64,000 bases of DNA from a virus, in IMG/VR virus record IMGVR_UViG_3300032242_001844; one strand, given 5' to 3'. The translations under genes were made by a program, and so were the position numbers. The first letter of the stretch is position 1; each line of letters opens with the position of its first letter. The notes under the pieces were generated by a model. That model worked only from the letters and a program-made list of their open reading frames with translations. It had not been told where the DNA came from and did not search any database. Positions 2,938 to 48,468 of this stretch are shown here, in pieces.

Positions 2938-3647
2938 ATAATATTTCTTTAGTAACTATCACATTTCATAAAGATTTTAATTGTCTTGAAAAACAATTGA
3001 CATCACTTAACATGTATTATAAAAAAAATTTAACACATAATATTATATTGAATGATGATGAAATTTATTTGACTGGTTTACAAAATATAGTATCTAAATT
3101 TAAATATTTTAATTATAAAATTTACCACTTTTCAAATTTTGATTTATCACATCAAACTGTTGAATTAGATTGGTTTAACCAGCAAATACTAAAACTTCAA
3201 GCTTGCAATATCATAGATACTAAGTTTTATTTAATTTTTGATTCTAAAGATTATGTGACACAATATCATGATTTTAACGAATTGATAGCCAATGACATTC
3301 CATCACTGAACTATGATAAACATGATTTATATAAACTTGATACCAGTTATTCAAATTCATTTAAATTTTTTAATCTAAATCCTGATGAGCATAGAGATTT
3401 TGTAACTGACGGACGAACGCCATTTATAATGGAAACAGAACATACAAAATCATTATTAAATTATATTGAAGATAGCGGCATAAAATTAAACCAACTTATA
3501 ACTCCAACAACAGACCACACAAAGCGACACACAGAATTTTATCTTTATAATGCGTGGTTAGAAAAAAACAATGTTAAAGTAAATTGGGTAAAAGAATTAA
3601 TACTAGGACAAAAAATAGAATATGAATGCAGAATTAAAAATATTTAA
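2934..3647 (+). CDS. hypothetical glycosyltransferase-like protein (AT-rich)
   Basis: W..QQILKL, YLIFDSKD and TEFYLY motifs recall the DUF6492/GT-like family; markedly lower GC than neighbours. Confidence 0.45.
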   Translation: MNNISLVTITFHKDFNCLEKQLTSLNMYYKKNLTHNIILNDDEIYLTGLQNIVSKFKYFNYKIYHFSNFDLSHQTVELDWFNQQILKLQACNIIDTKFYLIFDSKDYVTQYHDFNELIANDIPSLNYDKHDLYKLDTSYSNSFKFFNLNPDEHRDFVTDGRTPFIMETEHTKSLLNYIEDSGIKLNQLITPTTDHTKRHTEFYLYNAWLEKNNVKVNWVKELILGQKIEYECRIKNI

Positions 3648-3665: not shown

Positions 3666-4166
3666 GTGCGTATATTAACCGTAGAAAATACAGTATTTGA
3701 AATGAATAATTTACCAGACCAAGTTGATGATCTTAGGTTCTGTGTGTTAGACAACAGTAATCCAGCAGATGCTGACTATTACTTTTTACCATTAGTTTTT
3801 TTAGAAAGTTTCAATGATCCTGCTCTTGTGCTAAAGATAGGAAATCATAAAATTATGATGCCATACAATTGGCGTATTCTTATTGGTGAAGCAGAAATTG
3901 GTGACCTTGAAGCCCTACCACTGACAAAATTAAATGATCGCGGGTTCCAAGCCTTTACATTTAATCCTATTAGTTCATTTCGTGCAGAGTTTATGAATAT
4001 TGAAATAACAGATGTTTATCAAGATGTGCGTTGGTATTTTCCTAAAATAAAAAATGGTCAATTACTGTGCATACCGCTAAGTGATGGACCAAAGCCAATA
4101 TGTGCATACTTCGTTAAAGAAATTAGTCGTGCAAGCGAATTGATTGACATTCAAAACATAGTGTAG
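3666..4166 (+). CDS. conserved phage hypothetical protein (beta-rich)
   Basis: GTG start with AAGGAAG RBS; 166 aa; ends in TAG. Confidence 0.7.
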   Translation: MRILTVENTVFEMNNLPDQVDDLRFCVLDNSNPADADYYFLPLVFLESFNDPALVLKIGNHKIMMPYNWRILIGEAEIGDLEALPLTKLNDRGFQAFTFNPISSFRAEFMNIEITDVYQDVRWYFPKIKNGQLLCIPLSDGPKPICAYFVKEISRASELIDIQNIV

Positions 4167-4178
4167 TATCATATAAAA

Positions 4179-4640
4179 ATGAACAAACTTGACATTGGTT
4201 ATGAGATGGCACAGTTGGATACCAAGAACCGTGCCTTTTATGATGAACTTACCGATGAAGAACGCAAAAAGTTCTCTACCTATCTTATGTTGCGGTGGGG
4301 CAGCGCAGTTATAGGAGTTTCAGAGTTGCAGCAGTATTATTTGCAAGCAATGAACGAACGAGTTAACAAGCGGTTTTTTGATATCAACAAGCATCCTAAA
4401 CTGCAGTGGCTGTTGATGACAACGGTAAGTCCTGATATGGGTAACCATCGTCATGAATGGATGGCGTTTAATGCTCGCAAATCAAAGAACAAACGAAGTG
4501 ATGTTATTGCAAAACTATATCCAGAATATAAACTTGATGATTGTGATCTGTTAGCATCAAGTATTCCTGATGTTGAGTTTAAGGCGATGTTGGTGGAATT
4601 GGGTTGGAATGATAAAGAAATCAAAGAGGCAATGAAATGA
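4179..4640 (+). CDS. putative clamp-loader small subunit (T4 gp62-like)
   Basis: Helical protein with F..Y.MLRW.S, N..FF, HPKLQW and W...K pattern recalling gp62; replication context. Confidence 0.5.
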   Translation: MNKLDIGYEMAQLDTKNRAFYDELTDEERKKFSTYLMLRWGSAVIGVSELQQYYLQAMNERVNKRFFDINKHPKLQWLLMTTVSPDMGNHRHEWMAFNARKSKNKRSDVIAKLYPEYKLDDCDLLASSIPDVEFKAMLVELGWNDKEIKEAMK

Positions 4641-15100: not shown

Positions 15101-15442
15101 ATGAAACTTTTTGAAGTTGCTCCAGATTTTGTAAAAGGTGAACAAGCATTTCTCATGACAATTTTACAATATCTGCAGAGTAAAGCGAAACCAGGTGAAA
15201 AAATTCCAATGGCAAACATTGCTCGTTTAATGAATAATGCTGGTTATCAATTTAATTTTGATATCTTACAAGATATGATGGCAGATGAAGAAAACACTGG
15301 CTTAAAAGATATGATTGGCGATGCAAATCAAGACAGCATTACGCTAGGTAAAAAATCTCCTGCCGATGATGAGTCGCTAGATGATAATAATGCGGAAGAA
15401 AAAACCGTAGATCAGATGGCAAGTAACGCAGCTAAGTTCTAA
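15101..15442 (+). CDS. hypothetical protein (MKLFEV...)
   Basis: Start immediately after the upstream stop; acidic C-terminus. Confidence 0.65.
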   Translation: MKLFEVAPDFVKGEQAFLMTILQYLQSKAKPGEKIPMANIARLMNNAGYQFNFDILQDMMADEENTGLKDMIGDANQDSITLGKKSPADDESLDDNNAEEKTVDQMASNAAKF

Positions 15443-26276: not shown

Positions 26277-26822
26277 ATGTCTATTCCAGCAAAAATTGGC
26301 AGTATGAATACTGGACTTGGTGTTGCATTTATGGGAGAATTAACTGTTCTCATAAATGGAAGACCAGCAAGTCGTTTAGGTGATATGGTAACAGGTCACC
26401 CTGGATTTGATCCATTGCACCCCCATCCGCCAAATCCAATAATTATTGGTAGTCCAAGTGTTTTAGTAGGCGGAAGACCACAAGGTTTCTTAGGAAGTCT
26501 TGATATGTGTCGCCATTCTATGATTCCATTTGAAGCAGATGTATTAGTAGCCGCTGGCGGTGCTGGTGGTATCGGCGGTGGATTGCTTGGCGGTATTATT
26601 GGTAGTATTGGTGGCGGATTACTTGGTGGTCTTGGCAGTCTTGGCGGTCTAGCAGGTGGGCTAGGTTCATTGGGAAGTATTGCTAGCGGTCTTGGTGGCG
26701 TGTCTAGTATCGTTGGCACAGTTAGTAATGTTGTTAACAATGGAGTAGGCGGATTAGTCAACAGTGTTGTTGGCGGAGCAGTTAACAATGTAGTTGGGCA
26801 GGTACAAAATGCCATTAGGTAG
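26277..26822 (+). CDS. PAAR-domain spike protein with glycine-rich C-terminal extension
   Basis: VLINGRPASRLGD, HP, GSPSVLVGGRP motifs. Confidence 0.8.
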   Translation: MSIPAKIGSMNTGLGVAFMGELTVLINGRPASRLGDMVTGHPGFDPLHPHPPNPIIIGSPSVLVGGRPQGFLGSLDMCRHSMIPFEADVLVAAGGAGGIGGGLLGGIIGSIGGGLLGGLGSLGGLAGGLGSLGSIASGLGGVSSIVGTVSNVVNNGVGGLVNSVVGGAVNNVVGQVQNAIR

Positions 26823-31293: not shown

Positions 31294-31445
31294 AAGCTAC
31301 TCGTGAGATAATCTGGCATTTTGTATGTCAACATTGCAGTGGATGGTTCTCTCTTGCCGTGATGGACGATTGGAAGCCTAAGAAACTATATTGCCCACAT
31401 TGTGGCAAACAGCAGCAAATAACCCTTGACATAAACCCTGAATGA
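31290..31445 (+). CDS. small zinc-ribbon protein
   Basis: CQHC...CPHC; ATGA coupling. Confidence 0.7.
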   Translation: MKATREIIWHFVCQHCSGWFSLAVMDDWKPKKLYCPHCGKQQQITLDINPE

Positions 31446-31456
31446 TGCTATAAATA
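31426..31456 (+). promoter_or_regulatory. promoter for tmRNA (sigma70-like overlapping TAAATA late box)
   Basis: TTGACA-17-TATAAA(TA). Confidence 0.6.
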
Positions 31457-31459
31457 ACA

Positions 31460-31724
31460 TACTATTGTTGATAGCAACTAATAGATGGACTAGGACTCGG
31501 TTTCAATACCGACATCTCCACCACAAACACATTAGTGAAGTGGTGTGTTTTTGGGGGATGATAGGGTTTCGACTAGCATTGAAAAGGTTGAAGTAGATAG
31601 TGGGTTGAATGCCTTATAGTTCAAAAAATCGTAAATGCAAACGACAACAATGCATATGATCTTCGCCTAGCGGCTTGATCGGAGTAACGGGGGGAACTTG
31701 GCAACAGAATCCCCCCACCTTTTT
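31460..31724 (+). ncRNA. ssrA: circularly permuted two-piece tmRNA; tag (A)ANDNNAYDLRLAA*
   Basis: 3' acceptor half ...CATCTCCACCA (ends 31523) precedes 5' half GGGGATG (31554), with a G3-U70 pair; tag ORF 31637-31678; terminal GGCAACAG hairpin. Confidence 0.92.
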
Positions 31725-31733
31725 GAGAGGTTA

Positions 31734-32204
31734 ATGAAAAAACTCTTATTATCTTTGGCGCTTATCACGGCAGTGAGTTATCCTGTTTTAGCCAAAGACC
31801 CCAAACCCCAAAAACCTATTGTTGTAGAAAATCCCAGCGAGTGTGTTGCCCAAGCTATTAAAAATGAAGCTGGTGGCGAAGACTATATGGGACAAGTTGC
31901 GATTGCTTGGGTAATTCGTAATAGATTACAAAGTGGAAAGTTTCCTAACTCGCCATGCAAAATCGTTTATGAACGACATGGAATTGATTGTCAATTTACT
32001 TTTATATGTTTTCCATTTAAGCCAGTTGACCAAGACAAAAATCGTGGAGATTTTTATAGTATAGCAATGATGGTGTTATATTCAACATATATGGTTGATC
32101 CAACCGATGGTGCGCTATACTTTAATAATAAACCATTTAAGAACAAACAGTTCAAGTTTATTAAAAAGATAGGACACCACTGGTTTTATACGGATGCAAA
32201 TTAA
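31734..32204 (+). CDS. cell wall hydrolase (SleB/Hydrolase_2) with signal peptide
   Basis: EAGGE...GQVAIA.VI.NR, CQF, DPTDGALYF, IGHHWFY; GAGAGG RBS. Confidence 0.88.
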   Translation: MKKLLLSLALITAVSYPVLAKDPKPQKPIVVENPSECVAQAIKNEAGGEDYMGQVAIAWVIRNRLQSGKFPNSPCKIVYERHGIDCQFTFICFPFKPVDQDKNRGDFYSIAMMVLYSTYMVDPTDGALYFNNKPFKNKQFKFIKKIGHHWFYTDAN

Positions 32205-39690: not shown

Positions 39691-39767
39691 GCGACCTTAG
39701 CTTAACGGTTAAAGCGGGTGTCTCTAAAACACCGACAATGTGGGTTCAAATCCCATAGGACGCACCA
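39691..39767 (+). tRNA. amber suppressor tRNA (anticodon CUA)
   Basis: GCGACCT/AGGACGC acceptor (one A:A mismatch), D arm GCTT/AAGC, GGTGT-CTCTAAA-ACACC, GTGGG-TTCAAAT-CCCAT, ACCA. Confidence 0.9.
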
Positions 39768-39789
39768 AATATTTAAAAAGGAAAAGAAA

Positions 39790-39969
39790 ATGAAAATTAC
39801 TAAAGCAGAAGTTAAAGTTAATCCAGAAACATTTCAACCAGTTATTGCATTTGAAGGTTATCTTACTATGGAATTGGCGAAAGAAAATGCTATGACCGAA
39901 GAAGAAGCTACTATTAATCTTGGAAAAAATTTAACAGAACAAATCCAAAAATTATTAAATACCAAATGA
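39790..39969 (+). CDS. small hypothetical protein (MKITKAEV...)
   Basis: AAGGA RBS; start trimmed so that it does not overlap the tRNA. Confidence 0.65.
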   Translation: MKITKAEVKVNPETFQPVIAFEGYLTMELAKENAMTEEEATINLGKNLTEQIQKLLNTK

Positions 39970-40124
39970 AATCAACAGCACGACATGTAGGCAGCGTAAA
40001 TTTGCGAGGCAAAAAATCTCTTACTTTACGCTGTCGCTGCTGTGAAGCACAGAACTTTAAAGATCGTGAACTAAAGCGTGAACACCTAAAACAAATTAAA
40101 CAGGAGAAAGAAAATATGTCATAG
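39966..40124 (+). CDS. small Cys-containing basic protein (52 aa, ends in TAG)
   Basis: ATGA coupled; MKSTARH...CRCC...ENMS*; below the ORF-track cutoff. Confidence 0.6.
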   Translation: MKSTARHVGSVNLRGKKSLTLRCRCCEAQNFKDRELKREHLKQIKQEKENMS

Positions 40125-40703
40125 GTAGAATTAGCATGTAAAGAAGCAGTGTTTCATTTTAACAAGAAACATTTAGAAGACCCAACAATCCCAATGTGGA
40201 TTATTATGGCCAAAGGCAAAACATATTATGTTGACCATGTTGAAGCCAACTTGCCTTGGACCACGAAAGAAACTCCAACCAATGTAAAAACCAAAGGCGC
40301 AATCAAGTTTAAAGATTGCCTTGTCACAATTGATGGTGATAATTGTGCAAAACTTACTGTTCTCACCAAAGCAGATGCGGCAAGGTTGCGCAACGCAGAG
40401 CGTGGCATTACTCGTATTATTACCAAATTTGGTGCATCACTTACCGAAGTATTAAACTCTCTTGACATCAAACATACACCTATTAAACGCATAGGTGGTG
40501 GATGTGGCAGTAGTTTTTATATCACTGATATTATGAAAGAAGAAGATATGACGCTGCTTTCAATATCAATGATTGGAAAAGGTGACTTTCGTATTCTTAT
40601 ACCAAATGAAGCATATTATGGTTGGTACGATAATGGCAATGCAGATGATATGGACGAAGATGAAAAATTATATGATTATGATGACGATGATGAATATGCT
40701 TGA
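40116..40703 (+). CDS. conserved phage protein with in-frame TAG at codon 3 (amber-readthrough candidate)
   Basis: AGGAGA RBS then ATG TCA TAG GTA GAA TTA GCA TGT AAA GAA GCA GTG..., in frame with ORF 40149-40703. Confidence 0.65.
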
Positions 40704-40731
40704 CACACAATATTAAATATTCTACAATAGA

Positions 40732-40932
40732 TTTTTAACGGTGGCACGGCTGTGCTAAAAGGTTGGAGCGAGTATAACTAAAAACCGTCTGTGAAGGCTG
40801 CAGACCATATCGGGCGGACTGGACAGGTGCGAGACCTGTAGAGGGTAATGGTGTTTGTGTCAGACAATTGAAAACCTAAAATTTTAGGCCAAACTAAAAC
40901 CATCGTGGGGATAGCAACCCACCCGTTAAAAA
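40732..40932 (+). ncRNA. structured tRNA-like ncRNA (unassigned)
   Basis: Terminal TTTTTAACGG/CCGTTAAAAA stem, D-like GCAC/GTGC hairpin, T-like GTGGG/CCCAC hairpin, internal hairpins, own TTGACA promoter. Confidence 0.6.
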
Positions 40933-40988
40933 ACTATTGACAAACCGCAGACTATATAGTATATTAAAAGAATAAACAGAGAGAGTAT

Positions 40989-48244: not shown

Positions 48245-48468
48245 TGGATAATGTAATTGATTGTAAAAACATGTTTATTAACATGCGTATGATGACGATG
48301 GTGAAACGATATTTGCGCGATAGTGGCAAGGACAGTGAAGCCACTGTTGAGTTTTATCCTGATGATGCAAGTCCAACGGGCATTGGGCTGGTGCTTGTTG
48401 ATAGAAACGGTCATTCTAAAAAAATTAGTAACGATATCATTAATAATTTATTGACAAAGGTTTCATAG
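48244..48468 (+). CDS. hypothetical protein
   Basis: GGAG RBS, coupled; ends in TAG. Confidence 0.6.
   Translation: MDNVIDCKNMFINMRMMTMVKRYLRDSGKDSEATVEFYPDDASPTGIGLVLVDRNGHSKKISNDIINNLLTKVS

What the first reader, a model, noticed from the sequence alone, without database searches (positions are those of the whole stretch)
39691..40703. Amber-suppressor tRNA next to a gene that needs TAG readthrough: a possible local, tRNA-gated expression switch
Seen: a complete tRNA with a CUA anticodon (39724-39726) and encoded CCA. About 350 nt downstream, a strong RBS (AGGAGA) precedes ATG-TCA-TAG-GTA-GAA-TTA-GCA-TGT-AAA-GAA-GCA-GTG..., which is in frame with the 184-aa ORF 40149-40703. The GTG at 40149 has no comparable RBS. 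The same TAG (40122-40124) also ends the in-frame 52-aa ORF 39966-40124, so readthrough could give either MSxVELACKEAVFHF... or a fusion with the Cys-rich peptide. Other long genes in the window are intact under code 11, so this is not genome-wide recoding. Inference: the phage's own suppressor tRNA licenses one gene (a timing or dosage switch, or an early stage of TAG reassignment).
Basis: partly seen in the sequence, partly recalled or inferred. Interest (0 to 1): 0.92.

Follow-up and report, generated by a model that had tools for sequence, protein, structure and literature searches.

The report
Amber-gated phage gene with own suppressor tRNA
A large phage carries a tRNA that reads the stop codon TAG, and next to it a gene whose third codon is TAG; the same pairing recurs in dozens of divergent phages, so it looks like a conserved translational lock and key, although what the locked protein does is unknown.

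Summary
The window holds a canonical tRNA with a CUA anticodon and encoded CCA at 39691-39767. Gene X (40116-40703) starts AGGAGA-N8-ATG-TCA-TAG.

Of 58 distinct related loci (pairwise protein identity 37-99%), 54 have SD-ATG-(1-4 codons)-TAG. The stop is always TAG and is always followed by a purine. Codons after the TAG evolve as coding sequence and form the protein's first beta-strand.

53 of the 54 TAG loci carry a same-strand tRNA-CUA upstream; the other has almost no upstream flank. A shorter subfamily, including cultured Rhizobium phage RHph_I1_18, has the same gate and tRNA. A second, PTH2-like family is gated the same way.

The genomes otherwise use the standard code. In a complete 355-kb relative, TAG ends 44 of 372 genes.

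So this is an old, selected cassette, not an error and not incipient recoding. Still unknown: the inserted amino acid, the function of gene X (weak OB-like N-domain, ferredoxin-like C-domain, acidic tail), and the purpose of the gate. Nothing has been shown experimentally. I found no description of it in the literature. The scan had noted this stretch once before, on the same DNA.

The parts
39691..39767 (+). Amber-suppressor tRNA: anticodon CUA at 39724-39726, anticodon loop CUCUAAA, G1:C72, A73, an A4:A69 mismatch, encoded CCA.
   Evidence: ARAGORN. Rfam RF00005 scores 60.4 bits. In an alignment of 48 distinct homologous CUA tRNAs, 16 of 18 cloverleaf pairs show compensatory changes, and UCUAA, the D-loop GG, GTTC and CCA are invariant.
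39790..39969 (+). Small ORF of 59 aa between the tRNA and the gated gene. No family match. Not a conserved part of the cassette.
   Evidence: No protein-coding neighbour is shared by more than 16 of 58 loci.
39966..40124 (+). Small Cys-rich ORF of 52 aa, ATGA-coupled to the previous ORF. Its stop codon is the gate TAG, so suppression would also give a 245-aa fusion. This is seen only in the closest relatives.
   Evidence: The upstream frame is closed by other stops in L020, L021, L012, L013 and most other loci.
40102..40107 (+). Shine-Dalgarno sequence AGGAGA, 8 nt before the ATG.
   Evidence: An AAGGAG-like motif lies upstream of the ATG in the related loci.
40116..40118 (+). True start codon of gene X.
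   Evidence: ATG lies two codons before the TAG in 39 of the 47 loci whose TAG sits 10 codons before FHF.
40122..40124 (+). The gate: in-frame TAG at codon 3, followed by G (purine).
   Evidence: TAG in 54 of 58 distinct loci, never TAA or TGA and never a sense codon. In the 4 exceptions the start codon sits at this position.
40116..40703 (+). Gene X, 195 codons including the TAG. N-terminal all-beta domain (about 40116-40403), ferredoxin-like C-terminal domain (about 40404-40640), acidic tail.
   Evidence: 569 database relatives; 173 clusters at 50% identity. AlphaFold2 mean pLDDT is 85.5 for the whole protein and 92.4 for the N-domain, with residues 2-16 forming the first strand. No Pfam, PHROG or PDB sequence match.

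Best explanation
The tRNA and gene X form a conserved phage cassette that works as a translational lock and key. Ribosomes start at a strong Shine-Dalgarno site and ATG, add one residue, and meet UAG. If only host release factor 1 is available, a dipeptide is released and no protein X is made. If the phage's own CUA tRNA has been transcribed, processed and charged by a host synthetase, it inserts an amino acid and the whole 195-residue protein is made. The output of X therefore follows the ratio of charged suppressor tRNA to RF1. Placing the TAG at the very start gives a clean off state with no truncated fragments. Shown here: the anatomy, conservation of the TAG and of the coding sequence after it, and tRNA linkage across divergent phages in genomes that otherwise use the standard code. 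Inferred: that suppression actually occurs, which amino acid is inserted, and what the gate is for. My best guess is delayed or limited synthesis of a protein tied to translation or peptidyl-tRNA metabolism.
For: (1) The TAG is conserved in 54 of 58 distinct loci whose X proteins are 37-99% identical (median 55%), while the codon before it varies: TCA, GCA, GCC, CAA, TCG, AAA.
(2) The nine codons between the TAG and FHFNK keep their amino acids (E 47/47, C 46/47, V 47/47) with synonymous third-position changes. 19 of 54 loci have no ATG, GTG or TTG in that stretch.
(3) AlphaFold2 places residues 2-16 in the first beta-strand at pLDDT 86-95.
(4) The four loci without a TAG start with Met exactly at the TAG position.
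(5) A same-strand upstream tRNA-CUA is present in 53 of 54 TAG loci once non-canonical tRNAs are recovered. The gap from the tRNA to the ATG runs from 15 nt to 4.4 kb, median about 290 nt. No protein-coding neighbour is shared by more than 16 of 58 loci.
(6) tRNA divergence and protein divergence correlate: Mantel r = 0.21, with 0 of 999 permutations reaching it.
(7) The tRNAs keep a cloverleaf through compensatory changes and keep CUA invariant.
(8) The N-domain-only subfamily shows the same gate plus an adjacent tRNA-CUA in 3 of 3 cases, including cultured Rhizobium phage RHph_I1_18, where the gene is unannotated.
(9) An unrelated PTH2-like family has ATG-(1-2 codons)-TAG in 4 of 5 distinct loci.
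(10) The genomes use the standard code: window coding density is 0.905 against 0.922 with read-through. In the complete 355-kb relative G010 it is 0.923 against 0.925, TAG ends 44 of 372 genes, and there is one CUA tRNA among 30.
(11) In five 260-365-kb relatives, the only AGGA-ATG-NNN-TAG-R site followed by a long ORF is gene X.
Against: There is no experimental evidence that the tRNA is charged or that it suppresses. The inserted residue is unknown. The 'Q' seen in database proteins is TAG read as Q by the gene callers. 35 of 54 loci, this window included, have a GTG or ATG one or two codons before FHFNK, which could give some tRNA-independent initiation. Three loci keep a nearby CUA tRNA although gene X is ungated; in one of them the gate sits on the PTH2-like neighbour. 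The 80 loci examined are the best-scoring of at least 351, so more distant members are undersampled. Only the codon-3 architecture was searched across whole genomes, so other TAG-containing genes cannot be excluded. The always-purine base after the TAG is confounded with conservation of Ile, Val, Thr or Asn at that position.
Confidence: 0.78

Rival explanations
1. The ATG-TCA-TAG is a two-codon leader minigene or uORF that ends at the TAG. Protein X is then made by reinitiation or independent initiation downstream (GTG 40149), without any need for the tRNA. The tRNA is merely a neighbour.
For: The window and 35 of 54 loci have a GTG or ATG one or two codons before FHFNK. The leader resembles SD-plus-two-codon minigenes such as lambda bar (from my own knowledge).
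Against: 19 of 54 loci have no canonical start between the TAG and FHFNK. The codon right after the TAG is GTA here, AAC in RHph_I1_18 and ACT elsewhere, none of which is a start codon. The intervening residues are conserved at the protein level and form part of the first beta-strand. The stop is always TAG and matches the anticodon of a tRNA linked in 53 of 54 loci. There is no Shine-Dalgarno sequence before the GTG.
Confidence: 0.07
2. The TAG is a neutral, tolerated nonsense codon. Because the phage happens to carry a suppressor for other reasons, a TAG at an unimportant N-terminal position drifted in and has no regulatory role.
For: The N-terminal Met-Ser extension looks dispensable, since four loci start at the TAG position. 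Suppressor tRNAs with no known target exist in other jumbo phages such as XacN1 (PMC5852040).
Against: A neutral TAG should often be replaced by a sense codon, but none is seen in 54 distinct loci spanning 37-99% protein identity, while flanking codons vary freely. The same gate is present in the distant N-domain-only subfamily and in an unrelated PTH2-like family. The tRNA stays physically linked to the gated gene while other neighbours turn over.
Confidence: 0.08
3. Gene X is only one visible case of broader TAG reassignment (a code-15-like late-gene block) that lies mostly outside the window.
For: Phages with suppressor tRNAs and block-wise TAG recoding are well documented (Borges et al., bioRxiv 10.1101/2021.08.26.457843). 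TAG is rare as a stop in the window, at 5 of 82 ORFs. A second gated family exists.
Against: Reading TAG through barely raises coding density, in the window (0.905 to 0.922) and on average in 31 related loci (mean gain 0.019, against 0.006 for the TGA control; individual loci gain up to about 0.08). In the complete 355-kb relative G010 (CheckV 100%), coding density is 0.923 against 0.925, and TAG ends 44 of 372 genes. The in-frame adjacency rate after TAG stops is no higher than after TGA or TAA. Natural TAG stops show no special context.
Confidence: 0.05
4. The TAG is a sequencing or assembly error, or gene X is a pseudogene.
For: None, beyond the presence of a single in-frame stop.
Against: The same TAG appears in dozens of independent metagenome assemblies and in a cultured phage genome. 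The ORF is otherwise intact and under purifying selection.
Confidence: 0.01

Closest known systems
Suppressor-tRNA-mediated TAG recoding in phages (code 15; crAss-like, Lak and other gut phages)
   Same: A phage-encoded CUA tRNA decodes in-frame TAG in a host that uses the standard code. The literature proposes that this regulates when genes are translated.
   Different: There, many late, structural and lysis genes carry several TAGs, and code-11 gene calling collapses. Here one gene per genome (or two linked families) carries a single TAG within its first 10 codons (codon 3 in most). The genome keeps TAG as a normal stop, and the tRNA sits next to its target.
prfB (RF2) autoregulation through an early in-frame stop codon
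   Same: A stop codon early in the ORF makes synthesis depend on competition between a release factor and an alternative decoding event (from established knowledge).
   Different: prfB uses a +1 frameshift at UGA and senses its own product. Here the alternative event is a dedicated suppressor tRNA at UAG. Whether X feeds back on termination is unknown.
Pyrrolysine decoding (pylT CUA tRNA with UAG-containing methyltransferase genes)
   Same: A dedicated CUA tRNA is genetically linked to specific genes with an in-frame UAG. ARAGORN labels these tRNAs 'tRNA-Pyl'.
   Different: These tRNAs keep the D-loop GG and the GTTC T-loop, unlike pylT. No Pyl-related family was found in the six neighbouring ORFs that were scanned.
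Orphan CUA suppressor tRNAs of standard-code jumbo phages (for example Xanthomonas phage XacN1)
   Same: A jumbo phage using the standard code carries CUA tRNAs. The XacN1 authors could not find target genes by reading through annotated amber stops (PMC5852040).
   Different: Here a target is identified. It is invisible to that approach because only two codons precede the TAG. A pattern search of XacN1 found only a 39-codon ORF, which is inconclusive.
Lambda bar-type minigenes (SD, AUG, one sense codon, stop)
   Same: Sequence anatomy: a strong Shine-Dalgarno sequence, an ATG, one sense codon and a stop (bar from my own knowledge).
   Different: Here the stop is in frame with a conserved coding sequence that needs read-through, and codon 2 is not conserved.

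Membership tests
Canonical elongator tRNA (Rfam RF00005) | Cloverleaf scoring above the family threshold, with conserved D-loop GG, T-loop GTTC and U33 | tested here: met
   60.4 bits against a gathering score of 29. 16 of 18 pairs show compensatory changes across 48 homologues; UCUAA, GG, GTTC and CCA are invariant.
Amber suppressor tRNA | CUA anticodon in a normal 7-nt loop with U33 and a purine at position 37 | tested here: met
   The loop is CUCUAAA here. Across 52 tRNAs it is CUCUAAA in 34, UUCUAAA in 14 and UUCUAAC in 4.
Amber suppressor tRNA | Aminoacylated and able to read UAG in vivo | not testable with these tools
   Only indirect support: strict co-occurrence with an in-frame TAG (53 of 54 loci). 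The amino-acid identity is unresolved: A73 in 43 of 52 and G73 in 9 of 52, G1:C72 in the 48 aligned tRNAs, G3:C70 in 32 of 48 with a single G:U, and low similarity to the tRNA-Gln genes found in the fetched loci.
Phage TAG reassignment (code 15 type) | A phage-encoded CUA tRNA plus in-frame TAG in conserved genes | tested here: met
Phage TAG reassignment (code 15 type) | Many genes interrupted by TAG, so that coding density rises clearly when TAG is read as sense | tested here: not met
   Window 0.905 against 0.922; complete relative G010 0.923 against 0.925.
Phage TAG reassignment (code 15 type) | TAG largely abandoned as a genuine stop codon | tested here: not met
   TAG ends 44 of 372 genes in G010 and 5 of 82 long ORFs in the window. 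One of these sits just before a typical epimerase N-terminus.
Pyrrolysine system | pylT-type tRNA that lacks the D-loop GG and the T-loop GTTC | tested here: not met
   GG and GTTC are invariant.
Pyrrolysine system | pylS and pylBCD genes present | not tested
   Only six neighbouring ORFs were scanned, with no significant match. The whole genome is not held.
OB-fold single-strand-binding proteins (gene X N-domain) | OB beta-barrel recognisable by structure comparison | tested here: inconclusive
   The best matches are Stn1, RPA32 and Ten1 OB domains, but only at Z 3.3-3.9, rmsd 3.7-4.0 Å, 66-78 residues aligned. Foldseek found nothing.
ACT/RRM-like ferredoxin fold (gene X C-domain) | beta-alpha-beta-beta-alpha-beta fold | tested here: met
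   Z 5.8-6.7 to ACT domains (6lpi_E, 2qmw_B, 2pc6_A), rmsd 2.2-2.8 Å, 66-76 residues aligned. This is a common fold and says nothing about function.

The most novel reading that the evidence does not exclude
The tRNA-CUA, gene X and the PTH2-like gene form a self-contained amber-decoding module. Its gated proteins would act on the translation apparatus itself: on RF1, on peptidyl-tRNA released at early stops, or on the suppressor tRNA. The tRNA would then switch on factors that in turn change how UAG is read in the infected cell. This would be a minimal, mobile precursor of genome-wide TAG recoding, and a natural tRNA-keyed feed-forward switch.
Probability: 0.2. Interest if true: 0.92.

Novelty: new variant of a known kind. 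Interest (0 to 1): 0.8.

Why it matters
It gives a concrete, testable target for suppressor tRNAs carried by phages that otherwise use the standard code. That question is open in the literature: the XacN1 authors could not find targets for that phage's CUA tRNAs. It also shows that a single stop codon placed at the start of a gene, paired with a dedicated tRNA, can be kept by selection across wide phage diversity as a post-transcriptional gate. This is the minimal form of the code-switch regulation proposed for recoded gut phages, and a natural counterpart of synthetic amber-gated expression. There is a practical point too. Standard pipelines miss this gene (RHph_I1_18), truncate it (many calls start at the Met of PMW) or silently write Q at the TAG, so the feature is hidden in current databases. 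RHph_I1_18 and its Rhizobium host are cultured, so experiments are feasible.

Tried and rejected
- Megablast of the locus against phage records found nothing.
- Pfam and PHROGs scans of gene X and five neighbouring ORFs gave no significant family; the only hits were weak (E 0.012-0.09) and on neighbours.
- A profile search against PDB sequences gave nothing below E = 0.05.
- Foldseek against the PDB, for the whole model and for the N-domain, gave no match at E <= 0.001.
- BFVD returned only uncharacterised phage proteins.
- The ESM Atlas feature search gave no usable hit. The Atlas fold search did not answer on two attempts.
- Pfam on longer proteins that contain the X N-domain gave no informative fused domain.
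- I first took the Gln aligned to the TAG in 60 of 117 database proteins as evidence for Gln. I rejected this once look-ups showed that those proteins translate only 'with_TAG=Q'.
- I briefly aligned a Lys in P0168 to the RHph_I1_18 TAG. This was wrong: P0168 has its own TAG further on.
- The fused (Phosso-type) proteins give no clear residue at the gate position.
- Nearest-neighbour comparison of the CUA tRNAs with 107 other phage tRNAs showed no clear isoacceptor ancestry.
- A first all-against-all test for mid-gene TAGs was swamped by shadow ORFs and discarded. It was replaced by the density and adjacency tests.
- The other early-TAG candidates in the window are not convincing: ATG-TAG-TTG at 26788, and TAGs at 15408, 31668 and 56014.
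- The TAG at 48466 is a genuine stop before an epimerase.
- A pattern search of XacN1, RHph_I1_18, Phosso and Atu_ph07 found no further convincing gated gene.
- No whole genome is held for this window.
- Bacterial genomes hold the gene only on 5 short MAG contigs, so the host could not be inferred from them.

Full report
**1. The observation**

ARAGORN finds four RNA genes in the window. One is a 77-nt tRNA at 39691-39767 with anticodon CTA and an encoded CCA end. Rfam's tRNA model scores it 60.4 bits against a threshold of 29.

The sequence downstream reads AGGAGA (40102-40107), 8 nt, ATG (40116), TCA, TAG (40122-40124), then GTA GAA TTA GCA TGT AAA GAA GCA GTG TTT CAT TTT. All of this is in frame with the ORF that ends at 40703. 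The same TAG closes a 52-aa ORF that starts at 39966.

**2. What the window is**

The window comes from a large phage. It has helicases, ribonucleotide reductase, a carbamoyltransferase and tail-fibre-like proteins. It also has a two-piece alphaproteobacterial-type tmRNA. Its replicative helicase is closest to those of the jumbo phages PA5oct (52%) and Atu_ph07 (48%). No whole genome is held for it.

Under code 11 the window is densely coding: 0.905, against 0.922 if TAG is read through and 0.908 for the TGA control. Only 5 of 82 long ORFs end in TAG. One of those TAGs sits just before a typical epimerase N-terminus, so it is a real stop.

**3. Relatives of the gene**

Gene X matches no Pfam or PHROG family, but it has many relatives. 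There are 569 database proteins at E <= 0.01, 173 clusters at 50% identity and at least 351 IMG/VR loci.

I examined the window, RHph_I1_18 and 82 fetched IMG/VR loci. These reduce to 58 distinct sequences whose X proteins are 37-99% identical, median 55%.

- 54 of the 58 have a Shine-Dalgarno sequence, an ATG, one to four sense codons and then an in-frame stop.
- The stop lies 9-12 codons before the invariant FHFNK motif.
- The stop is TAG in all 54, never TAA or TGA.
- The next base is a purine in every gene X gate examined.
- In the 47 loci with identical spacing, TAG is 47/47, while the codon before it varies (TCA, GCA, GCC, CAA, TCG, AAA).
- The nine codons after the TAG keep their amino acids (E 47/47, C 46/47, V 47/47) with synonymous third-position changes. 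That is the signature of translated sequence.
- 19 of 54 loci have no ATG, GTG or TTG between the TAG and FHFNK.
- The four loci without a TAG begin with Met exactly where the TAG would be.

AlphaFold2 gives a mean pLDDT of 85.5 for the whole protein and 92.4 for the N-domain. It places residues 2-16 in the first beta-strand. The residues after the TAG are therefore part of the protein, and reaching them requires decoding the TAG.

One caution applies. Many database proteins show Gln at this position, but look-ups show they translate only 'with_TAG=Q'. The Q is an artefact of code-15 gene calling and says nothing about the real residue. Other database entries are truncated to start at the Met of PMW.

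**4. Linkage to the tRNA**

With default ARAGORN settings, 46 of the 54 TAG loci have a CUA tRNA on the same strand upstream. An Infernal tRNA search and relaxed ARAGORN settings recover non-canonical CUA tRNAs upstream of gene X in seven more. The one remaining locus has only 133 nt of upstream flank. That makes 53 of 54.

The gap from the tRNA 3' end to the ATG runs from 15 nt to 4.4 kb, with a median of about 290 nt. Eight loci have 15-40 nt, so the tRNA and the gene are probably co-transcribed. In contrast, no protein-coding neighbour is shared by more than 16 of 58 loci.

tRNA divergence and protein divergence are correlated (Mantel r = 0.21; 0 of 999 permutations reach it). The 48 distinct default-ARAGORN tRNAs keep a cloverleaf through compensatory changes in 16 of 18 pairs. 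UCUAA, the D-loop GG, the T-loop GTTC and the encoded CCA are invariant. They are ordinary elongator-type tRNAs, not pylT, whatever ARAGORN's label says.

**5. Depth of the arrangement**

A shorter subfamily consists of the N-domain only. It shows an in-frame TAG 7-9 codons before FHFNK, followed by AAC, and an adjacent CUA tRNA in all three cases examined. One of these is the cultured Rhizobium phage RHph_I1_18. There the gene is unannotated and the tRNA lies 12 nt downstream.

A second, unrelated family resembles PTH2 peptidyl-tRNA hydrolases. The Pfam match is E = 1e-3, below the family threshold, and a pairwise comparison with the clear PTH2 of phage Phosso gives E = 2e-5. This family starts MK*I, MS*I, MA*I or MKS*N in 4 of 5 distinct loci. 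One of these has a CUA tRNA about 60 nt upstream.

In the three loci where this gated gene lies upstream of gene X (abutting it in L023, about 250 nt away in the other two), gene X itself is ungated. In the jumbo phages Phosso and Atu_ph07, a PTH2 gene lies two genes upstream of a protein that carries the X N-domain.

In one locus a GIY-YIG/NUMOD3 homing endonuclease has inserted behind a copy of the MA*IEY leader.

**6. Not genome-wide recoding**

Reading TAG through gives a mean coding-density gain of 0.019 across the window and 31 related loci, against 0.006 for the TGA control.

I fetched a complete relative, G010: 355 kb, terminal repeats, CheckV 100%. Its coding density is 0.923 under code 11 and 0.925 with TAG read-through. 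TAG ends 44 of 372 genes. Only 3 of those 44 are followed by 60 or more open codons, a rate like that for TGA and TAA. The genome has one CUA tRNA among 30. Natural TAG stops there show no special following base and have a backup stop a median of 9 codons later.

In five 260-365-kb relatives, the only AGGA-N(3-10)-ATG-NNN-TAG-R site followed by a long ORF is gene X. In the window itself no other early TAG is convincing.

**7. Mechanism**

The best reading is a translational gate. Initiation occurs at a strong Shine-Dalgarno site and ATG. At codon 3, RF1 competes with the charged phage tRNA. Without the tRNA only a dipeptide is released. With it, full-length X is made.

The absence of any sense codon at the gate, across this much divergence, argues that the TAG itself is under selection. 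It is not merely tolerated.

What the gate achieves is inferred. It could delay synthesis until the tRNA matures, limit the dose of X, or couple synthesis to the host's charging or termination state. Established work on E. coli amber suppression says that a purine after UAG favours suppression, and that CUA tRNAs on foreign scaffolds tend to be charged by GlnRS or LysRS. I cite both from memory.

The tRNAs here have G1:C72 and mostly A73, no G3:U70, and little resemblance to the tRNA-Gln genes found in the fetched loci. The inserted residue stays open.

**8. Function of X**

The C-domain has a ferredoxin-like, ACT/RRM-type fold (Z 5.8-6.7, rmsd 2.2-2.8 Å, 66-76 residues). The N-domain gives only weak OB-fold matches (Z at most 3.9). 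The protein ends in an acidic, aromatic tail.

This loosely recalls single-strand-binding proteins, but it is not evidence of that function. The repeated association with PTH2-like genes and the tRNA hints at a role in translation.

**9. Comparison with what is known, and novelty**

Phage suppressor tRNAs and TAG recoding are known. So is regulation through an early in-frame stop, as in prfB.

What I could not find described in four further literature searches is a compact, widely conserved pairing in standard-code phages: a dedicated CUA tRNA with one gene locked by a TAG in its first few codons.

The XacN1 paper states that targets of that phage's CUA suppressors could not be found by reading through annotated amber stops. 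Targets of the kind described here would escape that approach. My own quick search of XacN1 was inconclusive.

I rate this a new variant of a known kind, of high interest. It is supported entirely by comparative sequence evidence and awaits experiment.

Noticed in passing
window 40700-40965: A near-consensus sigma-70 promoter (TTGACA-17-TACAAT, 40700-40728) overlaps the stop codon of gene X. It precedes an ORF-free stretch of about 200 nt, which is followed by a second such promoter (40937-40965). There is no Rfam match at E <= 1.
   Followed up: partly
window 31422-31769: A phage-encoded two-piece (permuted) tmRNA of the alphaproteobacterial type, with tag peptide ANDNNAYDLRLAA. It points to an alphaproteobacterial host.
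   Followed up: partly
window 3666-4640: ORF 3666-4166 (phrog_11279) ends in TAG and is in frame with ORF 4179-4640 (phrog_11758), four codons later. The suppressor tRNA would fuse the two. In-frame adjacency occurs at a similar rate for other stop codons in relative G010, so this may be chance.
   Followed up: partly
window 26788-26796: ATG-TAG-TTG sits at the start of the 417-aa tail-fibre-like ORF, behind a GGAG. The base after the TAG is T, so this is probably chance. It was not tested against homologues.
   Followed up: no
L023 5631-6002; L029 5355-5729; L169 about 3150-3504; L171 about 3990-4306: A second family, PTH2-like and about 121 aa, carries the same ATG-(1-2 codons)-TAG gate in 4 of 5 distinct loci. 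Where it lies upstream of gene X, gene X has no TAG.
   Followed up: partly
L022 4470-5135: A GIY-YIG/NUMOD3 homing-endonuclease-like ORF starts with a copy of the gene X leader (MA*IEY) and runs in frame into the real gene X start. The endonuclease itself would therefore be amber-gated.
   Followed up: no
L028 5311-5379; L099 1501-1571; L100 1501-1570; L115 1501-1571: CUA tRNAs with unusual D-arms upstream of gene X are missed by default ARAGORN settings but found by Infernal at 34-39 bits. Surveys of phage suppressor tRNAs therefore undercount them.
   Followed up: yes
L001 1553-1800 (Rhizobium phage RHph_I1_18, MN988519): The gated N-domain gene is not annotated in the GenBank record, while the adjacent tRNA is annotated as tRNA-Pyl(cta).
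   Followed up: yes
L146 / L148 (Xanthomonas phage XacN1 terminal repeats, record positions about 47902 and 366697): GGAG-ATG-CTT-TAG-G is followed by only 39 open codons, inside the tRNA-rich terminal repeat of a phage whose CUA suppressors have no known target. The ORF is too short to judge.
   Followed up: partly
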